A DNA stretch of 64,000 nt. It comes from Camelus ferus (Eukaryota). Numbering within the stretch: the stretch's first letter is position 1; every line of letters starts with the position of its first letter. This document shows positions 1,972 through 63,549 of the stretch, one piece after another. The notes under the pieces were generated by a model. The model had not been told where the DNA came from and searched no databases. It saw only the letters and a list, made by a program, of their open reading frames with translations. The DNA lies in assembly GCF_009834535.1 (NCBI RefSeq), contig NC_045696.1, forward strand, positions 72,418,001-72,482,000, written 5' to 3'. Made by a program: the position numbers and the translations under genes.

Positions 1972-2773
1972 CTCCTGCGCATATATCCAGAGGGAATCTT
2001 AATTCAAAAATATACAGGCACCCCAATGTTCACAGAAGCACTATTTACAACAGCCAAGACATGGAAACAAACTAAATGCCCATCAACAGATGACTGGATA
2101 AAGGAGCTGTGGTATAATTATACAATGGAATACTACTCAGCCATAAAAAATAAGATAATGCCATTTGCAGCAATGTTGATGGACATGGAGAATGTCATTC
2201 TAAGTAAAGTAAGCCAGAAAGAGAAAGAAAAATACCATATGATATCACTTATTTGTGGTATCCAAAAAAAAAAAAAAAGACAAATGAACTTATTTACAAA
2301 ACAAAAAGAGACTCACAGACATAGAAAACAAACTTATGGTTATTGGGGGGAAGGGGCTGGGAAGGGATAAGTTGGGAGTTCGAGATTTGCAGATACTAAC
2401 TGATATATATAAAATAGATAAACAACAAGTTCATACTGTATAGCACTGGGAACTATATTCAATATCTTATAGTAACTTATGGTAAAAAAAGAATATGAAA
2501 ACGAATATATGTACCTTCCTACATGACTGAAGTATTGTGCTGTACACCAGGAATTGACACAACATTGTAAACTGACTATACTTCAATAAATATACATTTA
2601 TACATATAAATATATACACAAATAAATATATATTTATATATAATATAATATAAATAATATAAATACATATACAATAAATATATATATATATACACAAACA
2701 CAAAATAAAGTATCTAAACCAGCCCTCTCAATACTGGTCACTTAAGAAAAAAACTTTTAAAGAAAAAAAAAAG
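1972..2773 (+). mobile_element. Young 5'-truncated L1 (ORF2 C-terminus + 3'UTR) with extra 3' sequence
   Basis: ORF 2026-2370 is L1 ORF2 C-terminal (TAKTWKQTKCPSTDDWIKELWY..MEYYSAIK); the 3'UTR ends tatacttcaataaa at ~2590; exact 14-bp TSD aatgaaaggaagct at 1958-1971 and 2774-2787. Confidence 0.95.
2590..2700. repeat. AT-rich (TA)n-like microsatellite derived from L1 tail
   Basis: Degenerate TA/AAT runs directly after the L1 polyA signal. Confidence 0.85.
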
Positions 2774-3929
2774 AATGAAAGGAAGCTTATAGGAGAGGCA
2801 AGGATACATGGTGAGACGGTCAGGAGGAGTTTGCTGTTGCTGTGCAATTAATATTCTGAATTTGTGTCTCTACCACCATTGTGACTTATTGAGCATAATT
2901 ATGTGATATAATGTGATGGAGGGGATGTTTAGAAAGTAAATCTTAATTATTACATATTTATTTCATTAAACATTTTCATTAAGCTTTAATGTCTAGGACA
3001 TTGTGGTAGGCACTTATTGGATGTGAATTAAAGGAGGTACATATTCTGGTTCCACCTGTCAAAGACAGCTCCATGGAGCACACGAAAAAGACAAAACAAG
3101 TAATTAACATTTATTTTGGTGGTCCTCAGGGCATAGATATTGTATAACAGGATGCATATACAGGGCTTTTTCCTATTTTGGGAAGCAAACTATCTCTTTT
3201 TTCCTTCCACAGACTTAAATTAGAAACTCTGTTGAGAATACTAAGAGAACCTGTAATTCAAGCAAATACTTTTAACAGATATGTAAATGTAAGTTAGTTC
3301 CTCACTTGAAGTCAGATAAAACATTTTTTGGAAAGAGGACAATAAACTTAATAAGGTGTTATATAATACGTAGAATAAATATTAGTACAGTATATGAACC
3401 TAAATGACAGCAACAAATTATAAAGGTTAGCATGCAATTAAAATCGCTAATGGAACACTGTATGGAGAGAATGTGTTCATTCTTAGATCAGTCAAAGAGC
3501 AGCTATTTGGTGTCAGAGCTACCACTTGAACTAATGACACCTTAAACTTATTTTGAAACACTGTCATGTGATAGTTACAATTTACGGGTATCTTCAGTTC
3601 AGTCTTTCAGCATATGTTGTATATGCTAATAAAATGTGCCCTCAAGGCAGGATGGTCCTCATGGCCAGAGTCAACAGTCAGATCTATGCTTAAGTAAATT
3701 TTTCTGATGTCAAACTTACAGACAGACAACAATAGTAGTATATCTTCTAGTGACTGGCAGGCCAACAGTGCTTTAGATTTCAAACTTAGGAACCAAAAGC
3801 TACCTGAAATTTGTCAGTTAAATTGCTCCTGCTGCCCTGAGAACTATAAGCTCTGAGTTTTTGTTTTTTACATGGTTGTGCTTTCCTGGCTATGCTCTTG
3901 GGCATATGAGTCTATCAGTCAATGTCATT

Positions 3930-4210
3930 TACCTCATCTTCCACATGTACAAATCTTACTCATCTTTAAAGACTTAAATTAAATGACATCTTCTCCATGA
4001 AACTCTCCTCCAGCTCTCTCAGTTTAAATTAATCTTTCTGTTCTCTGAACTTCCATTGCATATATTTGTACTTCCATTAGCACTTTTCACTATCTACATC
4101 ATAGTGTTATTTGACTATTATATATTTTGCATATTTTAAACTATGTATATATAAAATATATATCATATATATTTGCATATGTGTTTTATCCCTTATTTTA
4201 GACTAATAGA
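3930..4210 (+). mobile_element. L2 LINE 3' fragment
   Basis: aaatcttactcatctttaaagacttaaattaaatgacatcttctccatgaaactctcc is typical of the L2 3' region. Confidence 0.6.
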
Positions 4211-4298
4211 GGAAAGAAGTGTCCCAGATTAGGTATGGAAACAAAGGGATGCCACTTTTGGTGTACCGGCTAGACATGGACATATACTGAAAGTTTAC

Positions 4299-4490
4299 CA
4301 CTCAAGCAGGAGATATTTGAAAAATAATGGAATGACTTTGTAGTCTTTGATGACTGGCAATAGAGTTGCCCTTTCTATGTGTAATTCAAAAAGTTGACAT
4401 CTGTCAACTCTCTTGGTGAATGAAACATTCACATAAGTGAAAGGTTTCAAATTCATGCCCACATTTGAATAGGAAGAAAGGAATAATCTC
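4299..4490 (-). other. Candidate 192-nt symmetric internal exon
   Basis: Acceptor ttttctccttgaatacag|GAGATT and donor GAGTG|gtaaac; 192 nt, phase 2-2, open in one frame (RLFLSSYSNVGMNLKPFTYVNVSFTKRVDRCQLFELHIERATLLPVIKDYKVIPLFFKYLLLE). No homologue recognised. Confidence 0.4.
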
Positions 4491-4607
4491 CTGTATTCAA
4501 GGAGAAAATAGTTCATAGAGTTCATGGTAGAAATGGAGAGAGAAAATTTAGTATTGATACTGGAACTGATCTACTCATCATTAGAAACAGGGAGCTTTTC
4601 AGTTTCT

Positions 4608-5068
4608 ATGGCCGTGGAGGTGTGCCACTCACTCCTCCATCAAGAAAGAAACTGCCTGAGAGTGTAATTAGCAGACAGCCTTCAGATGTTGCAACTTTGG
4701 GATCCACCACAGTTTTCAACTCCAAGTTCATGCTCTTTTAGGGCTGCTCACAGCCAGTAACAGCACAGGAGGTGTTCTGTGAGCCAAGTACTACAAAACC
4801 AGGTCATTTCTGACCCATGTGGGACTCCTCTAAACTTTGCACTGGGGTTCCCCATTGGCCTGACTGGAACTTTCTTGAGCTACACTGCAGTCAGAGGCTC
4901 ATCCAACCCAATCCTCCTTCCTTTCCTCTCTTCTTTCACAAGTGTCAAATCAGCATTGTGATACAAAGGCTTTTCCTTCCTACTATTCACAGCAATTTAT
5001 TTCCTCTAATACATTTCTTGCATTCTATCTTTGCATTTGCCTTTGCCAGGAGTGTCTGAACTGACACA
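4608..5068 (+). mobile_element. Solo ERVL LTR (LTR16-like)
   Basis: Contains tgacccatgtgggactcctct and ends with degenerate polyA signal ...aatacatttcttgca...ctgaactgacaca, characteristic of LTR16 3' ends. Confidence 0.7.
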
Positions 5069-5400
5069 GCTTCAGACTATCATGTTGAGCAACCAGCATG
5101 ACAAAATTGGATCCGAGTAACCACACTCATGAATTTAGTCATCTATTCAATTTATTTTACAAATATTTTTGAGCATTGACTATATGCCAAGCACGTATAG
5201 TGAGTGTCCTAGATACCAGCAATATAGGAATAAGTAAGGCAGACAAGATGTATGTTTTGAATAGAATCTACATTTCTAAGGAAATTAATTAAATAATTAT
5301 TGTTTTTTACTTATCTTTTATCTCATAAGGTTGTATAGCTCATGATTATTTCTCAATTCTTAGCAACTTGATGTCTCAAAAGATTTCTTTATGTCCTTGG

Positions 5401-5538
5401 CCTTTCCCTCCCTCCCTTCTTCCCTTCCTTCCTTCTTTCTTTCCTTCCTTTCTTTCTAGCTCTCTTTCCCTCTTTCTTCCTTTCCTTTTTCCTTCCTTCC
5501 TTCTTTTCATTTTCTTCTTTCTTCCCTCCCTCCTTCCA
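5401..5538. repeat. Polypyrimidine (CTTC/CTTT)n low-complexity tract
   Basis: Almost exclusively C/T over ~135 bp. Confidence 0.9.
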
Positions 5539-6994
5539 TCAGAATAATTAATAATCTATGTTTCTGATGAAAGAAAACCTATAGATGGTAGTAGATTTGG
5601 AGACTGTACTTTAACCTCAATGAAGGCAAAGCACATACTCTCAACTTGGACAGGATTAAGGAAGGCTGATAAATTATCAGCACACAGCAGTGGAAAGAAG
5701 GAGGAAATCTGGGCTGTCAAAATATGTGGTTGGCTTTTTATTGGAGGGGTTGGTTTATTTCATATCCCAGGGAATTTTGCAGGTAGAAAAAAATTCAATA
5801 CTATGTTTCTTTCTTATTGTCAAATTTGGATCCCAAATTGGGTATTGTCTCACCACTGTGATATATTGATCTAGTTTTAGTATTACTGGAACCAAATTAT
5901 ATATCAAATCAGTATTTAATTTTAATTAGTAAAGTTACTTAGAGGTTTTCTCTACCAGACATCAAGGCATCAAGTTTGCTCAATTAATTCTCTTCTTTGG
6001 GATTTTGGTCTGATTATTCATTATGTAACACATCGTCCACCCCTTTAAAAAATTTTTGTTGTGTATGGTCATAAGGCCTGATCAGCTGATACATGCTTTT
6101 TCTAGTTTGTTATTATCTGTGGCCACTGGTGTTTTTCACTCCTTGTTGTTGGTACTGTAATTACCTTTTATGGATCTGTATGACTTATTCAAGTTTCTTA
6201 TGTTCACTCTTTTCTGTTCACATAGATAGAAACAAGTACATTAAAAATACACATACAATTGTAGAAGTAAGAAAAAGTGCCCACTTATATCAATATTTCA
6301 CTACTTATTAACATAAATAAAAATACCATTTTTGTATTAGAATTACTTTTGTATACCTTTTATTTTTATTTTTTTCTTACTTTAAAACATTTGAACCCAT
6401 GGAAAATTCACTACTCTAATTAGAAATAAGCTATATTCTCTTGGTGCTTTTTCTTGACAAATCTGTATTGCTCCAGCAAGTAAAAACAGATTGCCATTAC
6501 AAGTTCCCCCAAGAAGTTAACTTGCTATAGATTTGTACCCTTTCAGTTAATGTCCAACATTCAAAGATTTTTACTGAAAGAGCTCTTCTAAATAAGAATG
6601 TTACAAAGTAATAGTTCTAAAAGTACATATTACAAATGAAAAGGGAGGATAGACACATTATTTTGATATAGCCATTATCAAAAGTACTAGAAAATGTCTA
6701 CAAAAAGGTAAAGACACTCTGCTTAAAAGCCTCTAGATGCAGAATTCTTTGCTCTGGGAGATCCTGCTGAATTCCACTTTCATAATATTTGATTTGAAAA
6801 AGACCCAGATTCTCTTATATCTGATATCTAGAACTATCATAATCTAATATTACCATAAAATCAAGTTTTTATTGCCCTAATTTTATTCTAATCTAAGAAA
6901 ATATTTTTAAACATCAAGTACATTTTATTTATTGAAGCACTTTCATGTAGATTATATCTCAAGTTTTTGTCAGGAAGATAAGGTAAATAAGGAA

Positions 6995-8360
6995 GAGCTT
7001 ACAAAAAAAATCAATTATCATTCCCCTACACCACAACAACAAAGTGGAAAATATAATAAAAATGCAAAATCACAATAGCAATAAAAAACTAAAGCACCTA
7101 TGAGCTAATATAATGAATGCACAAGATCTTTATAGAAAAAAGTAAAGCTTTAAGAAAGGTATTATAATTGGATACTCATATAATAAAAAAGGAATCTTGA
7201 TACATATGTTACACTCTACAGATACACACAATATAAATATAAATGTAAAAGGAAAAACAATAAAGCTTCTAAAATAACTGGAGAATTTCTTCATGACCTT
7301 GAGGTAGCTAAAAATTTCTTAAATAGGACATTAAAATACTATCCACAAAGGAAAAACAAATAAATTGGACAAAATTAAAATTAAAAACCCTATGCATCAA
7401 AAACCACTATTGAGAGAGTGAAAAATAAGCCACAAACCTGAAGATATTGTAGTACATGTATCTGATAATGACTTATATCCAGAATATGTAAAGAAGTCTT
7501 ATAGATGAATGAGACAAGACAATTCAACCTCCCCAAAATGGGCAAGTACTTACACAGGCACTTCATGAAAGAAGAATGGTCATCAAACTTACAAAAAGGT
7601 GTTTAATTTCATAAATACCAGGGACATGAAAACTAAAACCACAGTATGATACCACTAAAGACCCAACAATATGGCTAAAATGCAAAAGAGAAAAAAGCAA
7701 GTGTTGACAAAGAAGTAGAATGACTAGAACTCTTACGTGCTGCTAGTGGAATGATCAATCAGTACAACCATTTTGGAAAACTTTTGGTAGTATCTACTAA
7801 AACTGACTATAGGTGAACCAAAGCTGAAACAGGCAAAAAAACCCCACAGCTCAGCACTTCTAGTCTTCTACCCAACAGAAATGCACATATTTGTTCACCA
7901 GAAGATATTTATAGGAATGTTCATTGCAGCACTTTTCTTAGCAGTCTCAAACTGGAAATAACCCAAATACCCATCAACAGTAGAATAAGTAAATTGTAGT
8001 ATATTTATACAATGGAATACTACATAGCAACAAGGTACACTCAACTGTATACAACAGAATGGATGAATCTCACAAAGATAATGCTGAGTGAATAAAGCCA
8101 GACTCTAATATTTATTGCATGATTTCAGTTTTATAAAGTTCAAAAATAAGCTAAATAGAAATCAGGACAGTGGTTATATAGGAGACGGGGGAGAGGGATA
8201 CACAATGACTGGGAGGATAGGTAAGGGTGGCTTCTAGAGTTCTGATGTTTTTTGATCTGCATGCTGATTAAACAAGTGGGTCTACTTTGTGAAAATTTGT
8301 CAAGGTGTACACTTACAATCTGTACACTTTATGTATATTATATCAATTAAAAATTTAGAT
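6995..8360 (+). mobile_element. Old L1 (L1MC/ME-like) ORF2 3' part and 3'UTR
   Basis: Degenerate ORF2 motifs (aactggaaataacccaaatacccatcaacagtagaat; tatacaatggaatactac) and an old-type 3' end (gtgaaaatttgtcaaggtgtacacttacaatctgtacacttt). Confidence 0.85.
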
Positions 8361-8419
8361 GAGAAAGAAAAAGCAAAACATACTGGATTCCAGATCTCCA
8401 AAGAGGCAGAAATAATTTT

Positions 8420-9700
8420 TAACTTAAAAATCACTAAAAGGGACATAAATGAAGACCTAAAAAATTGGTGAAATATGTTTATGGATGGGATAACTTAACA
8501 TTAAGATAACTATCCTCCCTAAATATGTAAATGCAATGTCATTCCACCAGCATTTTTTTGAGGAATTCAACTAATGCATCCTAGAACACATACTGAAAAA
8601 TAAAGATGCATGAATACCCAAGACAATTTTGAAAAACAAAAGCAGAGGGACTCCTTATCAAATATTATGACATACCACAAACAGTAATAAAAACAGTGTG
8701 TTTCTGGAGCAGAAGCAGACAGACTAATGGGATACTAAAGAAACAGACCCATTTATATATGAGAAGTTGATAAAGAATGGATTGTTTAATATATAATTGT
8801 TGGGAAAACTGATTCACTGTAAGTATAATAATTAAGGTGGCTCCCTACCTTAAATCAAATAAAAAGGCAAACTCTATATACTTGAAATACCTAAAAATAA
8901 GCTATAAGGCAAATAGAACAACATGCAGAAAAATGTCTTTAGGAAAAATGTCTTTAGATTCAAAATGCATAAACCATAAGGTGAAAAACTGACTAGAAGA
9001 GTTTGTACAACAAAGTACAGCATAAATAAAGTTAATGGATGACAGACTTGGGAAAAGATACTTGAAAAGTCGAAAAGAGGCTTATAAACTAGGATATACA
9101 AGGTACTCTTGGGGAAAAAAGATAGGAAATCCAATGGAAAATTGGGTGAAGATTATAAATAAGAAATTCACAAAAGTAGAAACTCAATTTGCTAACAAAT
9201 ATATGAACAGAAGCTCAACCTCAATTAGTAAATAGAGAACTATAAGTTAAAACAAACCCAAAACACAAAATATCCCTTTATAGCTATTACATTGGCAAAT
9301 ATTTTTAAACATTAGATAGTACCAATTGCTGGTGAGGATATGGAGGAAACAGGAATTCTTGTGAACTGTCATGGGTAGGGTAAATTGTTATAATGATTCT
9401 GGGGAGCAATTTGGCAGTACTTAGTGAAACTAAGTGTATGTGCATATAGTATGATCTAGCACTCCACTCCTGAAAATATTTCCCAGAGAAACCCTTGCAA
9501 AGGTCCAAAAAAGGATTAATGAGAACATTCATCATATAAACAGCAGGAAGTTAGAACCAACCAGTGAGTTCATCACTGGAAGAATGGTCTATATACACAG
9601 TAGGTTCATACCATGGATTATGTAATTAAAAGCAATCAATTACACATAAATACAGGTACATGGATAGATCTATAAAATCACCAATGAATGACAATTAAGA
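8420..9700 (+). mobile_element. Old L1 (L1ME-like) ORF2 fragment
   Basis: A-rich degenerate ORF2 (gaaacagacccatttatatatgagaagttgataaag; ggagcaatttggcagtac), interrupted at its 3' side by a young L1. Confidence 0.75.
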
Positions 9701-9710
9701 ACAAGAATGA

Positions 9711-10384
9711 CCTCAAAAGAATAAAAATAGACTTATCATATGATCCAGCAGTCCCACTCCTAGGCATATATCCAGAGGGAACCTTAATTCAAAAAGACAC
9801 TTGCACCCCAGCGTTCATAGCAGCACTATTTGCAATAGCCAGGATATGGAAACAACCTAAATATCCATCGACAGATGACTGGATGAAGAAGTTGTGGTAT
9901 ATTTATACAATGGAATACTACTTGGCCATAAAAAATAATAAAATAATGCCACTTGCAGCAATGTGGATGGACCTGGAGAATGTCATTCTAAGTAAAGTAA
10001 ACCAGAAAGAGAAAGAAAAATAGCGTATGATATCACTCACTATGTGGAATCTAAAAAAACAAAGACAAATGAACTTATTTATAAAACAGAAACAGACTCA
10101 TGTACATAGAAAACAAACTTATGGTTACCAGGGTTGGGGGGAGGGAGTAGAAAGGGATAAATCGGGAGCTTGAGATTTTCAGATACTGACTGGTATACAT
10201 AAAATAGATAATAAGTTTATACTGTATAGCACAGGGAACTATATTCAATATCTTGTAGTAGCTTATGGTGAAAAAGAATATGAAAACAAATATATGTATG
10301 TTCATGTATGACTGAAGCATAGTGCTGTACACCAGAAACTGACACAACATTGTAAACTGACTATACTTCAATAAAAAAAGTAAA
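9711..10384 (+). mobile_element. Young 5'-truncated L1
   Basis: ORF 9688-10023 is ORF2 C-terminal (YDPAVPLLGIYP...WKQPKYPSTDDW); 3'UTR and A tail; exact 14-bp TSD aagaacaagaatga at 9697-9710 and 10385-10398 after a TT|AAGA endonuclease-type site. Confidence 0.95.
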
Positions 10385-10459
10385 AAGAACAAGAATGAGA
10401 TCTACAATAACACAATACTATCTTGTAATTAAAAAGCACAAATTTAAAAAGCATACAGA

Positions 10460-10850
10460 TATAAGTCAGCCAGAAGGACAAATGTCATATGCTATCACCT
10501 ATATGTGGTATCCAAAAACAAATGAATAAATAAAACAAAACTGAAATAGACTCACAGAGAGTACAAACCAGTGGTTACCAGTCTGGAGAGGGAAGGGGGA
10601 GGGACAAGATAGGGGTAAGAAATTAAAATATACAAACCACTACTCACAAAATAAATATGCAACAAGGACATAAATGCACAGCACAGAGAAATATAGCTAC
10701 TATTTTATAGCATCTTTAAATGGAGTATAATCTATAAAAGCATTGAATCATTATGTTGTACATCTGAAACCAACAGAACATTGTAAATCAATTACACTTC
10801 AATAAATAAATAAATAAAAATAAAGGAAATAATAGCAAATACAAAAATAA
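10460..10850 (+). mobile_element. Intermediate-age L1 3'UTR fragment
   Basis: ataagtcagccagaaggacaaatgtcatatgctatcacctatatgtgg ... acattgtaaatcaattacacttcaataaataaa followed by an A-rich tail. Confidence 0.85.
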
Positions 10851-11426
10851 AACAAATTTTTAAAGCACATGTACAAAGCAACACTGTACAATTTATAAAG
10901 ACATACACATATTTAAGAAATTATACCAAATACATCAGTGAGTGCCAGAGGGTGTGTGGGATAGGAAGGGGGCAGTGGGATTACTATAAAGTAGAAAAGA
11001 AGTAAAATGAGTAAAATAAAATGAGAGAGGCCTTGAGCAGCCCACTGATGACATCATGCTATGAACTGATTAGAAGTTTTGAGTGACTCAACTCCCTGTT
11101 CTCGAAGTCCCCTTAAAAAAGCTCACCCTCATGAAAAAACCAAGTTACAATAATATAAATTAACCTACAAAAAAAGTTGATAGAGGTGCTTAATCAGCCC
11201 TCTACTGATAACTTTTAACTGGCCAAGCTACGGCTAAAGAGAAACTTGATTTTACACAGCTTTCACAGCTTCTCAACATCCACATACCTGCAAAAATGAG
11301 AGAATTTGTATATCCTTCCGTGTGAGTCCTCGTGATTCATTCAGGCTGTAGTTTAAGTAGGATCAGCATGAGCAAGCAAAGCACGATCCAAAAGGAGGAA
11401 GAAGCAAGATGATGTTACGGAAGTAT

Positions 11427-12200
11427 CTTTCTGCAGTCCCTTCTGTCGTTGTAGGGCCCAGGGGAACCTTTCAACGTAGGTGCTTGGCAACAAGTCGGCT
11501 GAGATAGGCTGACCTTGGAGCTTTCGTAGTCTCTCCTGTACAGCACTGGTCAGGTCTACACAAGCCTCATCAACGCTGGCACATTCAATAACAGCAAAAC
11601 GAGCTATTCCTCCATTACTTCCACGCTGGTTTCCCGGTACTTGGGGAGGTTAGCTTTCACGGACTTGTGCCAGTAGAAGATCTGAATATAACTTCTTAGC
11701 ATCATCTGCCCACATATTTCTAATGACCCCAAAGTACGAGCTTCGTAACTTACTTCAACGATTCCATAACCCTTTTATGATCTGTCCCGTCAACTGCACA
11801 AGGATTATTCCTCAAATGAGGATTTTGCCGCGGCTCCATGTGAACCAAAAAACAGCCCAAGTCCACTAGAGCAACTACCGGGTCCTGTTCGTTTCAATGT
11901 GACAAACACCCGGGCAAACTGCAGCCCGTGGGCGCTGCCGATACCGGGCTTGGTGTCCACCAGAGGGAAGATGAAAGGGTCTTGAGTATCTGTCCCCTTT
12001 CCGGGAGCTGGAGAGTCACTTCTGAGAGAGATTTATTCCCCATAATGACGGAGAAAAGGACCAAAGGCCGCAGACGACTCTTGCCAGGGAAACGGCCCGC
12101 GAGCCGTGTGGACCGCCCTCCTGACAGGGATGAAGGGTCGCGTGCACCCGCGCTCGACGCCGACGTCCGCTGACGCGCCTACGCACCGCGGCCCTTACGT
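11427..12200 (-). pseudogene. POLH: Processed pseudogene of DNA polymerase eta (POLH): 5'UTR + N-terminal ~160 codons
   Basis: Minus-strand translation across frameshifts gives QDPVVALVDLGCFLVHMEPRQNPHLRNNPCAV / VSYEAR / FGVIRNMWADDAKKLYSDLLLAQVR / KANLPKYRETSVEVME / RFAVIECASVDEACVDLTSAVQERLRKLQGQPISADLLPSTYVE / GPTTTEG..QK, collinear with the Pol eta N-terminus as I recall it (QDRVVALVDMDCFFVQVEQRQNPHLRNKPCAV...RFAVIERASIDEAYVDLTSAVQERLQKLQGQPISADLLPSTYIE). No introns, ATG lost, several frameshifts and stops. Upstream ggtgtttgtcacattgaaa and gggaataaatctctctc resemble the POLH 5'UTR. 5' boundary approximate. Confidence 0.95.
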
Positions 12201-12240
12201 CTCCTCAGTACGTCTTCTAACTTCTGTTTCCCGGCTGTGA
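11820..12240. promoter_or_regulatory. CpG island / candidate promoter
   Basis: Densest CpG cluster in the window (e.g. gtcgcgtgcacccgcgctcgacgccgacgtccgctgacgcgcctacgcaccgcgg); includes a TGACG CRE half-site and GC-box-like ccgccc. Elevated CpG extends left to ~11300. Confidence 0.75.
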
Positions 12241-12833
12241 AGAATTCCACCTTCTACAGACTCAGCCTTTCTAATTAACCAGAATTGTTATTATATATAT
12301 ATTTGCTTCGGATGCTTGAATCATCACGGCTTGTGAGTAGCATCTCTCTCAGCGGGATCTGTTTGTTGTCTTTTCAGCACGTCCTGCCATCGTAGGAAAA
12401 AACCGATTTTCTATAACCATAGGAGGTTACTACCATCACCATCCTAATTTTTTTCTGTCCTAAGACATGACTTCTGGTACCTTGCAAAGAGTCCTGGTTC
12501 CTTTGAGTGTAATTTGGAACCGTAATCTGTGCTTTATGAGGGCTCATGATGGCAAGTTGTGGACACGGGTGATGATTTCTGCTGTTGTGGGTAGAATGCT
12601 GTTAGTGGCAGGTCTGGGAAATACATATTTTTTTTGAGCGTATGAGCTTACATCAGGTTTTTTTCTAAATTAAAAAATTTTAATAATGTAAGTTTTCATG
12701 CTGCATTGGCAGTATGAACCGAATTGCACAAATGGGTTTCATAAATCAATGCTTGTTTCTGTTCAGAACCAATATTCTCTGAGATGGGCTACCTTGGAAT
12801 CTGTGATTCGCGCAGCAACCCTTCCCCTTTCTT

Positions 12834-13228
12834 TGTTACTAACACTCCGGTTTTGCTTCTGGGGACTTCGCTTCCCTCCTTCCATATTGTTCTGGTGGGA
12901 GAGACATGTGCACTGTCCTCACACTTCTTGGACACATGTCTGAGGTAAGACTGTTCCTACCCTCCCGGGAGTTTAAGTCTTCAGTGAGTGTACATTGACA
13001 CAAAGCACTGAAGTGGGTCCTTCCAATGGCCAAGCCCTGAAGAGAGTCTTTTAATACCTCTTTCCTAATTTCTTGGAGCATCTTGATCCTGTTCTTCCCA
13101 AGGCCTGATTGTTCACTTTTTCATTAGAGTCTGTAGTTTATTTAATTTTTTAAAGATTATTATTGCTATTTTGCTTAAGTTAACCAGAGTTGGTTTCAGT
13201 CACCTACAACCAAATAATCACTGATGCA
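12834..13228 (+). mobile_element. MaLR LTR (MLT1-like)
   Basis: 3' end gcttaagttaaccagagttggtttcagtcacctacaacc...ctgatgca matches the MLT1 terminus. Confidence 0.7.
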
Positions 13229-14039
13229 GTCATCTTTGTGGGTGGATATGTGGGCTTCCAGTAGCTTCTAGTGTAACTATGTTGGATGCCTCAGAATTTT
13301 TTTTTTTCAGAAAATTATTTGCATGATGACTTGATCAGTTTATTTAGAGAAGGTTTCAGTCAGTGACAAGGGGTCTGGGAAAAACGTGAGTCCTTTTTAT
13401 TTACAAAACAGGTTGGTTTTATTTTTGAGACACATTTTGTTTTTCTATTTGTTTTACGTGTTTGTAGGTACAACCATTTTCAGACTTGTTTATTTTTATG
13501 TGAAAAAGATTACTCATAACTTGTCATTTTCAGAAATCAAGAACATAAGACCTTCTTTAAGAGAAAGACCTATATAACTTTACCACCCTGGTCCCAAGGT
13601 TGTCTCAGGTTGTATATCCTGTGTTTACAACACAGTTACTCAGCTTCTGTCTTTATAAGGAAGAAGGTCAAAGGTATCTTTGGGTTGTTCTCTTTGATAT
13701 CTTAGTATGGAGATTTGTTCATAGATTGTGACTTTAGGCCATCAAATGTTCAAACTTATTTGAGTCAAACTGTAACTCCTGCCATCAGGGATGCTGTGTT
13801 TTCCCCATCTATGAAGTGCTTTTCTCATTTCTTATGTGCAGTAAATGATAATGACCGACCTTGAATTTTGCTGGCTGAAGTGCTGGGTAAACAATAAATA
13901 ATACCAGTGACTCTATGAGATTACCGTCTAGGTTGGGTGCCCTCTGCATTCTTCAACACTTCATTGCTGATTCAGTTTTTGAAAATTGCCAACTTGGTCT
14001 TCAGATCATGTATAGTAAGTCACTACAAATCATAGGTAT

Positions 14040-14200
14040 AATAGCAGCTATCATTTATTGAGTATATTATGCCAGACACTATATTGGATGGTTTATAAAA
14101 AGTGTGTTCTGTTTTCACCAATATCTTGGGTACTATCATCATCATTTATAGACAAGGGAACTGGGATTCAAATTTCTGTGATTTGATAAAGGTTTCCTTA
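14040..14200 (-). mobile_element. MIR SINE
   Basis: atagcagctatcatttattgagtatattatgccagacact...atttatagacaagggaactggg. Confidence 0.7.
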
Positions 14201-14319
14201 TTCTACTTTTTGACAATTTATTCAAATAAAAGATATCCTAGTCCTGCATATTTCACACAAGAACCTTCATAAATAATGGGATAAACATAATACATGCGCC
14301 TTTGTTGCCCTTGTTTCAA

Positions 14320-14560
14320 TGATTTTCAAATCTCCAACTCTTTGCCCCTATTCTTTCATCATGTCTGGCATCCAACAGCTTCTCCAAGTCAGAAATCTGA
14401 AATATCACCCTTGATCTTTTCCTCTTTTTATTCCCTTTTGTCAATCAGTTATTAAGTCTTGTCAAAAATATATTTTGAATATGACTATATTTTTCCTTCT
14501 TATTGTCACTGCTATACTTTAGTTCACCATTATCTCATCATCTCAATGATTCTAGCTGTA
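14320..14560 (+). mobile_element. L2 fragment
   Basis: ccaagtcagaaatctgaaatatcacccttgatcttttcctc...caatcagttattaagtcttgtc. Confidence 0.6.
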
Positions 14561-15338
14561 CCTAAAAGGAAATGTCTCAGTTAATCTATGCTTATTCAGT
14601 CCTCTTGGAGACATGGACTTTTTGGAATGATTTATGGTCCTGGACAGATAAAGAGCAGAGTGGGACTGGGTGGTAATGAGTAGTCACAGACTTGGATGAG
14701 AGATCATCTATAGGGAAAGAATATAGATTGGGTTGGTTCAGTTTAGTAGTAGGCTAAAATCATTATGGAACTTTTTTACCAAGGGTGAGAGATTAAACCA
14801 ATAAGCAGGAATGGAGCTATCTTTGGATTCTGGGCACAACAAATCAGTATGCCACACTGTAAATGCTAGGTGAAGGTATTAAGGGAACAATAAGAGGTCA
14901 GCAATATATTAGGAAAAAGAGCAAGATAAAGTTGGAAAGGTAAGATGGTTACTTTCCTAACATTTACCATGTTCTATGTAGGACATGCTTTGTTTTGTTT
15001 TTGTTTTAGTTTTTTTGAAGTGTACAAAGGCTATATTCTTGTTTATCTGGTCTAAAGATCTTCCCAGGTTGAGGGTAGACTCAAAGTGGCTGGGTGAATA
15101 TAGACCTTTAGGAGCCAAGGGCTTGAGGCCTGAGTATCAGTTCTGTGAGTTTAGTAATGCCTTTTAGTCATACCTTTTCCTCAGCTAGAGATTGGAAAAT
15201 GGCCAATTTTATGCCCAAGCAGGTTGAGTCATGCCCATTTTGGACTGTCCAAAGGCAGAATATAAGTAAAAAAGATCAGGTGATATTTTGAAAAAGATAA
15301 AATGAAAGAAGGCAGCATCATATGAAAAAGACCTTATA

Positions 15339-44099: not shown

Positions 44100-44640
44100 T
44101 GTTGTGTGTGCCTCATTGCTATTCCCAGAATGTCGAGCTGAGCTTATGCTCCTCTGGAAGACTTAGCCGCCTGAAACAGTAAAAGAGTCCTTTCTTCTCC
44201 TACCGCCCCCTTGCCCCCCATTTTCCTTGAAACTTTGCCAATATCAGATCGCGCTCTGTCTGTTGCTGCATTAAAATGAAGTCATTCCCTTCCTCTCGCC
44301 ACCGTCCTCCCTCCCACCCCTACCTTTCCCCCTGCTCTCCAGCTCCGCGATTTTCTCACTAAATGGGGGAGCCGCTGTTGCTGTCGGGGACGAACTTTTT
44401 CAGTTTTATTTTCTTGAGCCTTTCTCTCCTCACCGTTTTTTCTCCCCGTTTCTCCCTCTTCTTAGACATGGTTTTTGGACTGGGGGCTGTGAAAGGGAAA
44501 GAGAAGGGGCCTGTTTTCCTCTCGAGGTAAAAACAGCCTTGGAACCGGCAGGTGCACGGCCCCCAAGCAGCTGCTTGCGCTTCGCAAGCTGAAGCGTCTT
44601 ACTTCCCCCTCCAAGCCAAGAGCACTTCATATAATCCTCT
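44100..44640. promoter_or_regulatory. Weak CpG-enriched, repeat-free promoter/enhancer-like element
   Basis: Local CpG excess (gatcgcgc, ctccgcga, gtcggggacg, ttgcgcttcgc), C-rich GC boxes (ccgccccc), CCAAT at ~44238, splice-like signals on both strands. Confidence 0.5.
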
Positions 44641-46969
44641 CATGCAATTCACACTGTAATTGCAGAAACCCCGACTGCTTGGGCTCATCATCATATTATT
44701 ATTACGATTATTGTTGTTGTTGTTGTTTTTCACTGATAACAAGATCTTCTGCAAATAGGAACCTGTCATGTTAATTAGTTTTTTTGTGTGTAAGATGAGC
44801 TGCTTCTCCAGAAGCAAAATTTTTCCTTTTTTGTCTTGCTCTTAGCCCTATTCCCCTGCCCCCTTCCAGCCCTTACCCCCTTAAAGGCCACTCAGGGAGT
44901 AGCACATGTGGAACTTTTATATGGTTCTATAGTAGGCCTTTTATTACCCTGTGGGCCTCCTACTCCTCTTAAGAAAGGGGCCGGTGGTTAGGTGCTGGCA
45001 ATGAAAATTATTTTCTTAAACACCAGCTTGTTTTCTCAAGGTTCTGTTTATTCCTTTGGTAATTATGGGACTAAAGGATCCTTTTTTTCTTTTTTTTTTT
45101 TTGGTTGATCCGTGAGCACTATAGTCTATAGAACAATCATTTCATGGTTTTGAGGAAGAAAGAACTAGGAATGAAAGTTTGAAGAGATTCAATTTTTTTA
45201 AATTCCCTTAAGAAATATGTAGAGAATAAATGAAAATGTTTTTATTGCTGACTTAAAGAAAACCTGGTATTTTGAGGGGTCAGAAAATATAAACTATTGC
45301 TATGCCTAAATCTAATTTTGTTCTGTAACTTTGGTCTGTTTTTTTGTTGTCTACCAAATTCAGCAATTCATGACTGCATCATGGTTTTTTAAATCAGAGC
45401 CATACACTGCCTGTGCTATTATTTAAATAACATTTTCTTTTTATGGACTTACCTTTTAAGTGTAGTTTACTTGCAAGGGAAACTATTTACTATGAACATA
45501 TCAGTCCTATAAATAGTAAACAAATGTGATAAACCATAAAGAAGATGTAACTATTAAAGGAAACAAATGAAAACTATTCAGTTCTTTTGTGTTAGACAGG
45601 GTGTTATGAAGTATAGGAAAGGTGTTCAAGATTAGCACTTGGACTTTTTAGTCTTACTGTAATCAGAAAGACTGAAAGACAACTGATAGGAGAATAACTT
45701 TCCTACTCACTATGTGGACTGCTGCTGTTCAGCACCATGCCAGTGTACTGCCTGCACAGGCTCATGTCCGGCAGTGTGGCCACACATGGTATGTGTCCTA
45801 CACTTCGGGAAATACTGGCCCATTGTGTGGCTGGGGGCTCAGGTGGTCCAGAATCAACTATGGATATTTGGTTCTAGGATGGCTGTTATTTAGGTTGGCT
45901 CTTGATGTATATGAAATATATATTTCTAGTATAAGAGAAGTGAAAAAAACCCTGCTCTTTCAGAACAGTTCGTCTAGTAGTGAAATTAATCAAACATTAA
46001 GCATAAGAAACCAAAGTTCTAAAAGAACATCCAGGGGCAAAGCAAGAAAAGCTAAGTTCCAGGATCTGTGATGGGAACCAAAAATAGAAGCCAAAATAGG
46101 ATCTAAAGTCTGAACAAAGTGGAATGGGCATAAGGGTAAAAGTGAAGTGAGATAGGTGTTCCAGAAAAAAGTGTGTGTGATCAGAGCTGAGGTACTGAGA
46201 TTTTCCTTTACTGACATGTGATGTGCGGGAGGGTCTGGCTGGGTAAAACCTTGGGCAAAATCAGGGTTGAGGAGGCTATAAAGAAAAGCACTTTTAAATA
46301 ATTGGTGTGAGTCATGAGACAACGATGAGGACTACCCATCTCACCTTCATACACTCACACACACACTGCGAAGCTACATGGGTTGGAGAACCTCACAGTT
46401 TCTATTAGTCATAAACAAAATATTTTTAAGAGATTTATGTCCCAAACTCTTTCACACAACCAATTACCATTTCGATATCTAAACATTCCTGATTACTCCT
46501 AATGATTCTGTGCTCCTTGTCTCCCCACAACACTCTCCCTCACTGTTCTCCAGCCTTTAGGATGGAAAGGGCAGCCTTGAAGATGCATAAATAACCTACC
46601 AAATTTTTCTTCCACAGAAGTTTAGTAGTCCTTCAAGGACCTCTCTGCAATGTCCATGTTTTAATTTACTCTCCAGAACAGCGTGGGGAGAAAGTGAGTG
46701 TTGATGTGTTTCTTTAGGACCTTCTGTGGTTGGCTAGTTAATGACAGTTTCTAATGTTGATGTAGTCTATTAAACATGACTTTTATAATCCATCTACCTG
46801 TTTTATGTTGGAACTGACGATGATTATATAAAAAGTACTCTGATAGATATAAAAGAAATTTGTTTGACAGATATTTTCTGAGGACTTCATATGTGAAAGG
46901 CTCCATTCTTGGGCCAGAGAGTATGATCATAACCCAGCCCCTGCTGTTAAGGAATTGTTTATTTGGAGT

Positions 46970-50769: not shown

Positions 50770-50895
50770 CTCTCCCTCCTTTTTCTTTTTCTTTTTCTCC
50801 CCTCTCCCCTACCCCCTTTTTCTCTTTTCTTCCTTTCTTCCTTCTTCCTCCTCCAGCTCCCTCTCGCGCCACCCGCCCCCCCCACCCCGTCCCCT
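50770..50895. repeat. Polypyrimidine / C-run tract (G4-forming potential on minus strand)
   Basis: ctctccctcctttttctttttctttttctcccc...cgccacccgccccccccaccccgtcccc. Confidence 0.8.
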
Positions 50896-52239
50896 TTGGA
50901 AGCCCCTGGGATGACACTGTTCATTGATGCATCTCCCTCATTAGCATTGCTGCAGCTTGGCTCTGAGGTTTCAGAGGCAATCCGTCATGAGAAAACTGAA
51001 GAATGTGCCCCATTTGCATGATTCTGTGCCAGAATGCAACTTTTTCTCAGCTGTTCTTTGTGTAATTTCCCCTTGAGTGTTCAACTTTCCCATGAAGTCC
51101 TAGAAATCATATTACAGATTTCCAACCCAATTGAAATGCTCCTCAGATTAGTTTTACATACTTGCTTCCTTCCCCCAACAACTTCATAGTTCTTTGTAAA
51201 CAGAGCAAATTTGTACACAAATAACAGGTTTCACCTTTTATTGTTTGGAAATGAGGACACATTAAGTAAATAACTTTGCTTTGAAAGTGCAGGGGTACAT
51301 GTTATATGTGCAAATGTATATTTATTACACATGTCCAAATGAGGCCACAGTGCTAATAAATACTTAGACAATCTCTGCTTCCTAGTCATTTAGAGCCACT
51401 GCAAACAACATTTTGTAACCTACAGAGAGACTCAGAGCAGAAACACAGCAAAAAGCTGGACAAAGTACTCAATGTTTAGAGTTAAAGAGAACTTCCCCCA
51501 TAAGTGGAGGAGATCTACTTTGCAGCTCTTGGGTGAGCACATTTTAATAAATGAATAAATTCATAGTAGCTAACTAACTGCTAATTAAATAAGTATTCTC
51601 ACAATATTTTTTTCCTAGATAAAAAATGATGATGACACCGATAACACGGGGACATACAACCTGTTACCAAGATTTACGTTTTCCAGAAATTAAGATAATG
51701 TGCTACACACACAACACCCTACATTCCAGAAGAGAAAATGCTCCATTAAAGTATGTTCATTACATTGCATTTGAATTAACAATAACAAAAAAAAAAAACA
51801 ATTTACACACAGACACAAGACACACACAGTCTTTAGCCCTTTTTAATGACATGCTGTTCTTCTCAGCGTCATTATGTACAAATCAATATAGTCTTTTCAT
51901 TCCCTCTTGCCTTTTAGGGCAGTTAGGCATAAGAATAAAAACTTATTTTTATTATTTCCATTCTAAAAACTGTAGAATTTTTTTTTTTTGATTACCCCTT
52001 GATTGTTGGTTGGAATGTATCCATTTGGGTAAAATAATGAAGATATTCTAAAAGTGCTTTCATTATAACTACTTGAAATTTTAAATTATGTCATAATCTT
52101 TTAGAATGAAAGTTACTTTAGAATGAGAAGGCAGAAGTACCAAACTTACTGAGTTCTGAACAAAATTAAAATGACTTAAAGATAATTCCCTGCACTAACA
52201 GAAGAAAATAAAGCTTTTAAAGTTCAAAACTTTGGTTGT

Positions 52240-52700
52240 TGGAGGAACGCTCGCTCACACGGTGATTAGAATTAGGTTGCGGAAGATTTCATTAATTATA
52301 GGTGACTGATTTTCCCTGAGCAGACAGCTCAGGTCTCCCGGCCCCTCCACCCGCTCCCCCACCTCCACCCCAATCCCAGCTCATCTCAAACTGTTGTCTA
52401 ACCTTTCCCTTAATCCATCTCATCTTGAGCTGATGGGAACTGCTTTCATTCCACCTCTTGTGGAGGTAATGAAACAATCTTCTTATTCACTTGGTTCCTC
52501 TGAGCCAGTGACATGCAACAACAACAAAAAAAATCGAGCGCCCTGATTAATGGCTGCTAATTAGCAATGTTAATGACCAGGTGTCCGAGAGCACGGCCAG
52601 CTCCTCTCAGCATGGAGTGATCGCTCAATGAGGGCCCTGCAAATCCATTCCCAGTGACCCTTCCCCTCAGCTGCCAGTAATGAAGGCTGCTTGCTTGTTA
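52240..52700. promoter_or_regulatory. Candidate developmental enhancer (homeodomain-site cluster with CpGs)
   Basis: Dense TAAT/ATTA sites (gtgattagaattagg, tcattaattatag, ctgattaatggctgctaattagcaatgttaatga) in repeat-free DNA with retained CpGs. Confidence 0.5.
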
Positions 52701-54639
52701 CTCCTGGGAGAGGCACAGGAGGAGACCCGGGGCCTGGGACCCAAACCCTTGCCTGGGGTCTAGTGGATCTTCCATTAATTAAGGTTAGCGTTTCTGGTCC
52801 CCCAAAAGCTCAAAGGTAAAAGAGTGAGGAGCAGGGAGATGAACTCAAAGCCTCTTTTCTCAGGAGGAGATTCTTTTCTAAATGGAACCAATAATTAATT
52901 TGAACTATCTACATGTATATCTATAATTTTGACTCTTTGTTAGGCTACACACAACATCTTCTCTGATTCTGTTATTATCCCAAGATCATTCACATGGGTG
53001 AACCGTATTTCACACTAACTCTCAAATACAACTTTCTGTCTGGAAGGTTTACATTGTTTTTGCCATTCAGTGCAGATGAGCGGCAGCAGAAACTCAGAAC
53101 ACCTAGATCTGTGCTTAAAAAAACAGTAATCTTTTAAAAAATGTTTTCCTGGTTAGGAGGTGGGTTGAGTGTGCAAGTGCTCTTAGCTCTCATGTAGGAG
53201 CAAGGGAGTTATATTATCCTAAAAGAAAACAATACAAAACAAAAGCAGGCTATTCCAAGAGCTTTCTAGAGAAACAGCTCTATAAAGACCTGAAAAATTA
53301 TTTTACTAATTAGAGTTGGTTCCTTTTTTGAAATGCTGACCAGAAAATTGAAAAGTGACAAGAATAAAGTCTTTGCAGATAATTAACCATTAACTGTATT
53401 TGCCAATTTGTGACAAGCTGATTCTATGAGTTTACACATTTATTTTCTGCCCACTGGTGAATGGTCTTGTGCCTTCTCCAAGAAGGGGAGGAATAGATGA
53501 TTCAGTTTGGAAGAAACAGACTAAAATGAAAGGAGGTATGCCATGTCATTGCTCTTGTTTTAGCAGGCTTTTTCACATATATATCCTTAAGTGAGGATAA
53601 TACCTTGGTTAATTTAGAAATCTCCCTCCCACCTTTAAAAAATCTTTTTACTTGTTCAAATGTCTTATGTTTGATACCATTGTGATAAGTTTCTGTTTTT
53701 GACAGCATTGTGAAGAACATATAATTTATTTCAGAAGAATAAGTGCTATTGCAAAAATTACCAACTAGTCATAGGTGATAGAATACCACCCATGTACTGT
53801 ACCTAACAGCAGGGTTTGGAAAATTATGGTTACTAGGTTGTCTCTGGCCAGTAGGTCCAAATGAAATTTGACGAGAAAAACTTCAGTGCTTTAGTCCAAG
53901 TGTGGACAAGGCCAAACAACATTGCCTCATAAGCTACAAAAGGAGGCCGCCTAGACAAGAGGGTGGCTCCTCTGTTATTGGATCCCACCTTCTGCTGCAG
54001 TAATATTTGATGTAGTTTTTTGGAAGGAGGGGTAAAATTTTTCTCCCTATGGTTGGAGAATTTAGTAAACACTTTCATTGTAGAAAATTTAAAAAAACAT
54101 GCAAAGCACTTGCACACATGCATTTGCATGCATTCACGCACATACAGCACGCACAATCCTAACCAGAGCTATCCACCGCCAGCATGTGGCTGTGTATTCT
54201 ATCCACCTTGTCCGATGCACAGTCAGAATTCCTCTGTTAACAAAATTGTATTGTACTGCATGTATTTTATAAATTGCTTTTAAAATTAGCAATCTAACAT
54301 AAATCTGTTGTGAAATATCCTTCTTCAGTGGCATATTATGACAACCTCTACTGAGAGCCACGTGTCCACCATTAAACATTCATGATTAATGCAGATTTCT
54401 AGAGTTATTACAGAGCCATATTACTATGATGGTCCCAATACTAAAGGGAAAGGCACAGGCACCACCCTGGCTAGTCCTTCCTTCACAGTGAATGTTGAGG
54501 ATTTGTTGAGAATTGAGTTATATTCCTCCATTAGCTCAGCTCCTCCTGTGTTCTCTCCATAGCTCATAGAGCAGTGCTAAAGAGTAAAGAGAAAGAATGA
54601 GTTTATAAGTGGTGCCCTGTATCCAGTTAATTATACAAA

Positions 54640-62262: not shown

Positions 62263-63549
62263 AAAAGATTCATGCATCCTCTCAAGACTGGGAATCTTGG
62301 TATTTTGGGAATGTGGCAATGGCGGTGCTTTGGTCCTTGAATATTTTATCTGTTAAAGCTCTGCTGGCAGCTTCAGCTACCTAAGCAGGACATAACTTCC
62401 TATTTAAATAACAGAGTTCCAGCTAGTCAACTTAAAAGGATGGATGTTTACAGAAAAATCAATATGCTTTTCCTTTACCTTAGTGATGGGAGGGTACTGT
62501 GGAAGAGATATGTGCAGATATCCAGAAATCATCACTTGTAGTGCAGTTTTTATAGTGCAGTTCCTTATTTAATAGGACAGCAATTGATATTACAGAGTTA
62601 AATCTTTATCCTCATCCTAGGGAACCTATAATTTCTGTTAGGGCATATTTTTAGTTCTCACAGTTATACTTTCTTCCTCTCTTTCATCCTTCTATCACTT
62701 AGCAGCCACCTGAGACAGAACCAGAAGGTCAAAGTGGAATCTCTTGGTAATGATATTGAGAAGCATGTTTATTTCACTCTCTGACAGAAATCACAGGACT
62801 TAAATAGGGTGGGCAGTATTTCAGTCAGACTAAAGGTCTAAAAATGATCCTCACTTGGCCTTCCCAAGCATTGTTTATAGGCAAAGCAAAGAAAGAGAAC
62901 CTCCAGAAGCTGCAAATTTTGAGCATTTTGCATTGGTGTCTTTGTTACCTTTGATAAGAGAAATATGCATATCATGAATTTTCTTTTGAATGTTTAAAAT
63001 ATGTCTCATTCAAGGATCACCACTGTGCTTATAAACTTCTATTAACATCTCAGTCCTGGATGTCTAAGAATATTAAAATTCCCACATGACAAATATTAAG
63101 CCATAATTTCATAAATGTATGTAATTTCTACCTGCATTCTCTCATTGTCACCGTTATAATCTTCATAATTGCCACTGTTCCTTGAATTTGTTGTGGTGCT
63201 TCGTGTTTTTGAAGGCATTTTCATAGTCATGAATTCACTTAATTCTTCTCAACAATCTTGTGAATTTGACAGGTGAGAATATGATTCTACAGATAAGGAA
63301 ATAGACACAGAGAAGCTCTGTGACCCACTCAGGGTGGCACAGTTTGGAACAATATCCAAGTGTCTGGGTCAGTGATCTCCACTTGTTGTTAGTTAAAAGT
63401 ACAAATGCAAGAGACTGGAAATCCTTTCCAGTAATTATTCAGCCATTGGAAATTATTACTTTTTTTGTCAAAAGATAAAAAAATAGCAAAAGATTCATGC
63501 ATCCTCTCAAGACTGGGAATCTTGGTGTTTTAGAAATGTGGCAAATGGC
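62263..63549 (+). repeat. Dispersed ~60-bp direct repeat (62263-62323 and 63488-63549)
   Basis: 39 identical bases aaaagattcatgcatcctctcaagactgggaatcttggt followed by near-identical ..tttt..gaatgtggcaatggc / ..tttt..aaatgtggcaaatggc. Confidence 0.92.
63210..63385 (-). mobile_element. MIR SINE
   Basis: ttaattcttctcaacaatcttgtga...tacagataaggaaatagacacagagaag...gtgacccactcagggtggcacag. Confidence 0.75.

What the first reader, a model, noticed from the sequence alone, without database searches (positions are those of the whole stretch)
11427..12240. Dead POLH retrocopy that appears to have become a CpG-island promoter
Seen: an intronless POLH copy with many frameshifts, stops and a lost ATG (so it is old), yet it is the most CpG-dense part of the window. 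Knowledge: methylated retrocopies lose CpGs quickly, and the POLH 5' end is a CpG island shared head-to-head with XPO5. Inference: the copy imported POLH's 5'UTR/promoter-proximal sequence, stayed unmethylated in the germline and now acts as a promoter. Retrocopy-derived islands have also become imprinted DMRs elsewhere (e.g. in RB1).
Basis: partly seen in the sequence, partly recalled or inferred. Interest (0 to 1): 0.75.

Follow-up and report, generated by a model that had tools for sequence, protein, structure and literature searches.

The report
CpG island in dead POLH copy
An old, broken, reverse-transcribed copy of the DNA-repair polymerase gene POLH in a camel-family genome has kept the CpG-rich start of the gene intact, as DNA does when it escapes methylation in germ cells; this is a known way for gene copies to seed new CpG islands, and promoter activity has not been shown.

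Summary
A dead POLH copy lies on the minus strand (6 frame-breaking indels, one stop, no ATG). It is the window's CpG peak: 48 CpG in 814 bp, o/e 0.84, against 0.16 for the window. It is old: about 0.09 substitutions per site, shared with alpaca. Its CpGs have not decayed as methylated DNA would. In exon-1 blocks 8 of 8 CGN arginine codons are kept, in the coding part 5 of 6, and full-rate decay simulations never reach the observed count. Protection from germline methylation is therefore well supported. 'Promoter' is not shown: no start-site, strand, chromatin or methylome data were obtained, and the RNA index hits are weak. Corrections: the copy is not fully intronless, since it runs on into POLH intron 4. 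No XPO5-side sequence was recognised. Several breaks are absent from the alpaca copy. A candidate target-site duplication suggests a 5'-inverted (twin-primed) insertion. Dead POLH copies of the same exon-4/intron-4 shape occur in a capuchin and in cetacean-like records, with decayed CpGs. Verdict: a new member of a known kind (retrocopy-derived orphan CpG island). Interest 0.33.

The parts
11133..11153 (+). candidate left target-site duplication
   Evidence: 17 of 21 identical to 12396-12416; 1 of 200 control zone pairs reached 17/21, but the length was chosen after the fact and the 18-base score (14) was ordinary
11154..11426 (-). retained 5' part of POLH intron 4; the donor GT now reads AT
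   Evidence: matches intron-4 read-through tails of POLH ORFs from other mammals, to 11276 with P0083 (E 5.5e-12), also P0003, P0021, P0024, P0085, P0089; 11154-11275 is inferred from the candidate duplication only; CpG o/e 0.48
11427..11893 (-). spliced POLH coding exons, codons 3-163, disabled
   Evidence: 17 CpG, o/e 0.64 for 11427-11900
11894..12201 (-). POLH exon 1 / 5'UTR-derived sequence; start codon lost
   Evidence: P0008 extension matches 12081-11989 and 11984-11916 (E 0.007 each); P0090 matches 12100-11933 (64%, E 1.9e-19) and 12201-12148 (72%, E 4e-4); 11901-12240 has 31 CpG, o/e 0.98
12060..12240 (.). CpG-dense core with CRE-like, NRF1-like and GC-box words
   Evidence: 24 CpG in 181 bp, o/e 1.25, GC 0.66; CRE-core 4 vs 0.46 expected, NRF1-like 1 vs 0.01, of 11 recalled motifs tried
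11692..12356 (.). CpG island by sequence criteria (union of passing 500-bp windows)
12202..12395 (+). unassigned segment inside the candidate duplication; proposed non-inverted 3' piece of a twin-primed insertion
   Evidence: no match to the upstream part of P0090; 12241-12395 has 5 CpG, o/e 0.77; the assignment is inference
12396..12416 (+). candidate right target-site duplication
12417..12960 (.). CpG shore in the presumed pre-existing flank, with a donor-like site at 12944/12945 on +
   Evidence: 8 CpG in 544 bp (o/e 0.33) against 6 in the next 2340 bp (o/e 0.08); the donor-like word is one of 35 on + in the window

Best explanation
L1 machinery copied a POLH transcript that had its first introns spliced out but still ran into intron 4, and inserted it early in the camelid stem lineage or before, probably with the 5' part inverted. 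The copy lost coding function. Its exon-1 part carried enough CpG density and factor-binding words to escape methylation in the germline (the male germline at least), so its CpGs did not deaminate, and the protection fades outwards over the coding part and flanks. It works like an orphan CpG island: promoter-like, with at most weak, unstable or tissue-restricted initiation, and no shown role for a host gene. Shown: POLH origin, intron-4 retention, age, presence in alpaca, CpG retention beyond the methylated expectation. Inferred: germline hypomethylation as the cause, the role of the motifs, twin priming, and weak transcription.
For: Age: 28 minimal substitutions at 317 nonsynonymous sites, 0.094 corrected. 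At the 7 positions where camel POLH departs most clearly from other mammals (60, 88, 97, 105, 107, 108, 118) the alpaca copy has none of the camel residues; of all 12 listed positions it shares only V48 and S144, both seen in other intact genes. Retention: 8 of 8 CGN arginine codons kept in exon-1 blocks aligned to P0090, none decay-like; 5 of 6 in the coding part, against 4 of 14 in two other dead POLH copies (Fisher p 0.038; 0.080 if the alpaca R84H is counted as a loss); five new A/T-to-G/C CpGs at invariant residues persist. TpG/CpA o/e is 0.89 in the UTR part against 1.20-1.32 in the distal right flank, the old L1 to the left and five of six L1 copies. L1 copies in the window keep 15 of 101 dinucleotides at 26 putative ancestral CpG columns. 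Simulation at 0.09 with an 8- or 12-fold CpG rate: 0 of 60 runs reach 31 CpG for each of four starting densities. Graded o/e 1.25, 0.98, 0.64, 0.44, 0.11 leftwards and 0.77, 0.33, 0.08 rightwards resembles the sloping shores of hypomethylated islands (PMC4509998).
Against: No methylation data. A 5-fold CpG rate with a very dense start still reaches 31 CpG in 19 of 60 runs at 0.09 and 42 of 60 at 0.07. P0090 is an unnamed ORF, its blocks were found because they are conserved, and a looser gapped alignment with P0094 shows 2 decay-like positions. Some CpG-type losses did occur in the coding part (codons 111 and 152). The L1 control is not age-matched exactly. No poly(A) tail is seen at either end. 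RNA runs do hold part of the stretch, which fits a real transcript equally well.
Confidence: 0.5

Rival explanations
1. One reading: the island has been taken over as the promoter of a stable transcript, either a + strand long non-coding RNA using the donor-like site at 12944/12945, an upstream start for the promoter-like element near 44,200-44,530, or the copy itself (annotated as a coding gene in alpaca).
For: Six rows on record as RNA, from 2 studies, hold 0.37-0.63 of the words of 11120-13400. CRE-core and NRF1-like words are above shuffles. T>A and G>C skew on + is strongest right beside the island (0.133 and 0.063 in 12420-15300). NCBI lists an alpaca 'DNA polymerase eta-like' protein, XP_031537344.1. 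Unmethylated orphan islands show at least basal transcription (PMC5927659, passages).
Against: The four best RNA rows hold 831-939 million letters where the DNA rows hold about 1,980 million; if these figures are contig letters (my inference), those RNA sets cover over 40% of the genome anyway. Only 8 rows on record as RNA appear at all. Donor-like words are common (35 on +) and T>A skew is also present left of the island (0.057 in 2750-6900). About 3% of expressed retrocopies inherited a parental promoter (PMC4772013, passage).
Confidence: 0.27
2. The island is partly methylated and decays at an intermediate rate from an unusually CpG-dense start.
For: A 5-fold rate with a starting o/e near 1.35 reproduces the count in 19 of 60 runs; CpG-type losses exist in the coding part.
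Against: Starting o/e of 1.2 or less gives 0-1 of 60 at 0.09; 8 of 8 CGN kept in the aligned exon-1 blocks; no TpG/CpA excess.
Confidence: 0.09
3. GC-biased gene conversion at a recombination hotspot keeps restoring CpGs regardless of methylation.
For: Five of 11 A/T-to-G/C changes create a CpG; four indels separate camel from alpaca within 118 codons, which might reflect frequent break repair; earlier scan notes describe this in other retrocopies (unchecked).
Against: Direction is balanced: 11 A/T-to-G/C against 10 G/C-to-A/T plus 2 CpG losses, with 3 ambiguous and 2 neutral, of 28. GC content falls to 0.39-0.42 directly beside the island.
Confidence: 0.07
4. An RB1-type maternal germline DMR: methylated in oocytes, unmethylated in sperm, imprinting a host transcript.
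For: Sperm-only hypomethylation would leave the same sequence footprint (inference from male-biased mutation, recalled); precedent PPP1R26P1 in RB1 (PMC4122923, abstract and passages).
Against: No host gene was identified: 0 of 83 open frames tested (of 153 listed) hit Pfam. Only 5 of 104 comparable human intronic islands had intermediate methylation, and only RB1 is named as imprinted (PMC4122923, passages).
Confidence: 0.05
5. A recent insertion whose CpGs have had no time to decay.
For: The alpaca copy still has an open 125-residue frame.
Against: 0.094 substitutions per site; shared with alpaca; lacks the camel-specific POLH residues.
Confidence: 0.02

Closest known systems
Retrocopy-associated CpG islands (Rademacher et al. 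2014, PMC4122923; seen: abstract, introduction, part of methods, passages)
   Same: CpG island carried in by a truncated retrocopy; the paper counts 665 retrocopy-associated islands in human, and about 15% of its 104 intronic cases are unmethylated
   Different: Methylation here is inferred from sequence, not measured; no host intron identified; this copy is camelid
Retrocopies with parentally inherited promoter sequence (Carelli et al. 2016, PMC4772013; seen: passages)
   Same: 5' sequence of the parent transcript imported with the copy
   Different: Those cases (about 3%) have CAGE-defined starts; none is shown here, and the sequence upstream of exon 1's matched block seems not to be included
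[quoted passage not shown] 2015, PMC4509998; seen: abstract, outline, passages)
   Same: Explains CpG retention and a graded flank without any promoter function
   Different: That is a new transgene insertion in mouse; this is a natural insertion tens of millions of years old
PPP1R26P1 / CpG85 imprinted DMR in RB1 (PMC4122923 passages; PMC3839921 search listing only)
   Same: Island inside a truncated retrocopy
   Different: No host gene, allele-specific methylation or alternative transcript shown here
Twin-primed (5'-inverted) processed pseudogenes (PMC12016303; seen: passages and one table)
   Same: The candidate duplication gives a TTTC/A cut on the bottom strand, one of the listed L1 sites, which would put the POLH part in inverted orientation; 3 of 23 processed pseudogenes in that paper are inverted
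   Different: No poly(A) tail found and the non-inverted piece is not identified

Membership tests
L1-mediated processed pseudogene | introns of the parent removed | tested here: met
   intron 3 absent; codons 3-163 run without an intron-sized insertion; the positions of introns 1 and 2 are recalled; the start of intron 4 is retained
L1-mediated processed pseudogene | disabled coding sequence with an intact gene elsewhere | tested here: met
   6 indels, 1 stop, no ATG; intact 713-residue camel POLH P0069
L1-mediated processed pseudogene | 3' poly(A) tail | tested here: not met
   only runs of 6-7 A or T near either end; loss with age or internal priming is possible
L1-mediated processed pseudogene | target-site duplication with an endonuclease site | tested here: inconclusive
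   17/21 pair, 1 of 200 controls, length chosen after the fact
Twin-primed retrocopy | inverted 5' piece joined to a non-inverted 3' piece that follows it in the parent RNA | not testable with these tools
   parent intron-4 DNA not available; the metagenome scan found nothing
CpG island | at least 500 bp, GC >= 0.55, CpG o/e >= 0.65 | tested here: met
   windows spanning 11692-12356; best 500 bp o/e 1.01, GC 0.558
CpG island | unmethylated in the germline | tested here: inconclusive
   indirect only: decay footprint absent; no methylome
CpG-island promoter | defined start site with H3K4me3 and open chromatin | not testable with these tools
   no CAGE, ChIP or ATAC data
CpG-island promoter | transcript starting in the island | tested here: inconclusive
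   RNA index hits without strand or start information
Retrocopy-derived imprinted DMR | lies in an intron of a host gene transcribed in oocytes | tested here: inconclusive
   no coding exon recognised in 83 of 153 frames; long introns and non-coding hosts are not excluded
Retrocopy-derived imprinted DMR | parent-of-origin-specific methylation | not testable with these tools
   no allele-resolved data

The most novel reading that the evidence does not exclude
POLH makes a recurrent germline transcript that stops in intron 4, and it has been retrotransposed more than once in mammals. The camelid and cetacean-like copies may be a single insertion from the root of the even-toed ungulates whose CpG fate then split: decayed in whales, kept as an island in camelids, where it now starts or boosts transcription towards the conserved-looking regulatory cluster 32-40 kb away. 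That would be a natural experiment on what makes an imported island escape methylation at one and the same locus.
Probability: 0.1. Interest if true: 0.65.

Novelty: new member of a known kind. Interest (0 to 1): 0.33.

Why it matters
As it stands it is a clean, datable example of a known process: a retrocopy seeding an orphan CpG island in gene-poor DNA. Its added value is comparative. Other dead copies of the same POLH transcript shape have lost their CpG-coded arginines, so parent sequence is held roughly constant while the outcome differs. The shared shape also points to an intron-4-ending POLH RNA, which would encode only the first 164 residues of the polymerase plus a short tail. The searches showed no paper on this copy or that RNA.

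Tried and rejected
No read-level result on strand, start or depth was obtained, so transcription stays open. A metagenome scan with P0003 for mammalian POLH DNA gave 538 pattern matches and no confirmed locus. Rfam gave 0 matches at gathering score and 5 sub-threshold matches at E<=1, none in the copy. Pfam gave 0 of 83 frames. The word-indexed protein search with the UTR frame found nothing; the HMMER search found one protein. A tree of 22 rows could not place the copies: 13 of 19 inner branches were open, and neither alpaca copy + cetacean-like copies (p-AU 0.40) nor alpaca copy + camel gene (p-AU 0.28) was rejected. I first read 11426-11288 as a cryptic or host exon ending at a donor-like site; rejected because intron-4 similarity runs through it to 11276. 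I looked by eye for the recalled XPO5 N-terminus in the + frames after 12240 and saw none; this was not a formal search. Strand skew does not show a start of germline transcription at the island. Strong GC-biased conversion was not seen. No camelid methylome appeared among 12 listed papers. Supplementary files of the papers were not read; retrocopy tables there could list this copy's relatives.

Full report
Observation. The minus strand of 11893-11427 encodes POLH codons 3-163. One frame hits human polymerase eta in the PDB at E 1.1e-19, and camel POLH aligns in three frames. A frameshift-aware alignment shows indels at codons 37, 56, 82-85, 102 and about 149-153, and a stop at codon 42; a sixth indel lies at 11436; no ATG is left in 11881-11960. 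The stretch 11427-12240 holds 48 CpG at o/e 0.84; the best equal stretch elsewhere holds 24 at 0.55; the window averages 0.156. It passes the stricter 500-bp island criteria over 11692-12356.

Host and age. The best protein hit is an alpaca 'DNA polymerase eta-like' model, 96% identical to the window's frame (XP_031537344.1). It shares the copy's private changes, so the insertion predates the split of the two lineages. Earlier scan notes call the genome a camel (unchecked). Against a consensus of 50 intact proteins, codons 5-148 show 28 minimal substitutions at 317 nonsynonymous sites, 0.094 corrected; two positions seen in intact genes were skipped and codons at indels were not counted. Of 12 positions where camel POLH departs from the majority, the alpaca copy shares two (V48, S144), both common in other intact genes. 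I infer an insertion early on the camelid stem or before it, roughly 45-65 million years ago on recalled rates. The window has four deletions that alpaca lacks, so the count of breaks is a poor clock.

Anatomy. The copy is spliced: genomic read-through ORFs begin their POLH match at codon 92, and the window is continuous there. It does not stop at exon 4. The sequence left of 11427 matches the intron-4 read-through tails of several mammalian POLH ORFs, as far as 11276, with the donor GT changed to AT. At the other end, a tamarin POLH model's N-terminal extension matches 12081-11916, and an unnamed ORF, P0090, matches 12201-12148 and 12100-11933. The CpG core is therefore imported exon-1 sequence. 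P0090's first 42 residues have no counterpart, so the imported part appears to begin near 12,200. A 21-base pair of repeats at 11133 and 12396 (17 identical; 1 of 200 controls, length chosen after the fact) would bracket a 1,242-base insert. It begins with an A run on +, giving a TTTC/A cut on the bottom strand, a listed L1 site (PMC12016303). That orientation makes the POLH part an inverted 5' piece, as in twin priming. No poly(A) tail was found, so this remains inference.

Why the CpGs survive. In the two ungapped exon-1 blocks, P0090 has 10 arginines; the window has CGN at 8, AGR at 2 and a decay product at none. These blocks were found because they are conserved, and a gapped alignment with P0094 shows 2 decay-like positions. 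In the coding part 5 of 6 CGN arginines are kept, against 4 of 14 in two other dead POLH copies (p 0.038, or 0.080 with the alpaca loss). Five new A/T-to-G/C CpGs at invariant residues persist. L1 copies in the window keep 15 of 101 dinucleotides at 26 putative CpG columns (not exactly age-matched, and the columns are chosen by pattern). Simulated decay of the 340-base UTR part at 0.09 with an 8- or 12-fold CpG rate never reaches the 31 observed (0 of 60 in each of 8 settings); a 5-fold rate does so often only from a starting o/e near 1.35 (19 of 60). The fold values are assumptions from general knowledge. CpG o/e falls away on both sides. Substitution direction is balanced, 11 towards G/C and 12 away, which does not point to strong GC-biased conversion. 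The simplest cause is lack of methylation in the germline. This footprint cannot tell 'unmethylated everywhere' from 'unmethylated in sperm only': a retrotransposed island was hypomethylated in male germ cells and methylated in soma in PMC4509998.

Is it a promoter? Not shown. Of 24 rows listed for 11120-13400, 8 are on record as RNA, from 2 studies; six of them hold 0.37-0.63 of the words. None was laid, so strand, start and DNA carry-over are unknown. The four best hold 831-939 million letters where DNA rows hold about 1,980 million; if these are contig letters, such sets cover much of the genome anyway. The core has CRE-core and NRF1-like words above shuffles, 2 of 11 recalled motifs tried; the TATA-like count comes from an AT microsatellite. 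A donor-like site at 12944/12945 is one of 35 on +. No coding neighbour was found in 83 of 153 frames. I give 0.5 to an orphan island with little or no functional output, 0.27 to a true promoter, 0.09 to partial methylation, 0.07 to gene conversion, 0.05 to an imprint and 0.02 to youth.

Comparison with what is known. Retrocopy-associated islands are common: 665 in human, and about 15% of 104 intronic cases are unmethylated (PMC4122923). About 3% of expressed retrocopies inherit parental promoter sequence (PMC4772013). Orphan islands are generally unmethylated in the germline and show basal transcription (PMC5927659). Earlier notes of this scan describe two similar cases in the same genome (unchecked, not independent support). 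Searches for POLHP1 and for POLH with intron 4 and polyadenylation returned 0 papers; the listings showed none on this copy. Subscription journals and supplements were not covered.

What is new. The specific copy, its intron-4 tail and its likely inversion. Also, dead POLH copies of the same shape exist in a capuchin and in a cluster that includes a porpoise entry, with decayed CpG-type arginines. They share at most 1 of 18 changes with the alpaca copy, yet a tree neither joins nor separates the camelid and cetacean-like copies (p-AU 0.40). If they are one insertion, one locus has two epigenetic fates. Verdict: observation confirmed with corrections, interpretation partly supported, new member of a known kind, interest 0.33.

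Noticed in passing
proteins P0085 (cluster P0095-P0101) and P0087: Two other degraded POLH copies end in the same intron-4 read-through tail: a capuchin (Cebus imitator) model and a cluster that includes a Phocoena sinus entry. Each has lost 5 of 7 CpG-type arginines and shares at most 1 of 18 changes of the alpaca copy. Whether the cetacean-like copy is the same insertion as the camelid one is unresolved. The capuchin model has gaps and may not be a retrocopy.
   Followed up: partly
proteins P0002, P0006, P0040, P0083, P0084: Short POLH models with little degradation that end in intron 4 (bat, ground squirrel, bear and two without a species name). They may reflect a real intron-4-ending RNA or only annotation read-through.
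   Followed up: partly
window 11436-11777 against P0001: The alpaca copy keeps a 125-residue open frame and is annotated as a coding gene (XP_031537344.1); the window differs by four deletions (1, 11, 1, 2 bases) and 8 residues plus the start codon in 118 codons. The lopsided indel count is unexplained.
   Followed up: partly
window 44180-44700: Second, weaker CpG patch (19 CpG, o/e 0.60) with a pyrimidine-rich leader, an ATG-led frame of about 20 codons and a donor-like end near 44,527 on +; looks like a promoter and first exon. Gene not identified.
   Followed up: no
window 50800-51100 and 52240-52800: Non-repeat stretches with raised CpG and many TAAT words, resembling conserved developmental enhancers (by eye).
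   Followed up: no
whole window: Earlier scan notes place it 12.3 Mb after MUC13 and 16.8 Mb before IL12A in a camel genome. Interpolating with recalled human positions suggests the gene desert around SOX2, within about a megabase or two; unverified, and Rfam's scan reported no SOX2OT family here.
   Followed up: partly
window 9696-10399: L1 3' end with a 14-base duplication on both sides (by eye), nested in an older L1 pile that runs from about 6,900 to 11,120.
   Followed up: no
window 62263-62323 and 63488-63549: 62-base direct repeat at 93.5% identity, 1.2 kb apart.
   Followed up: no
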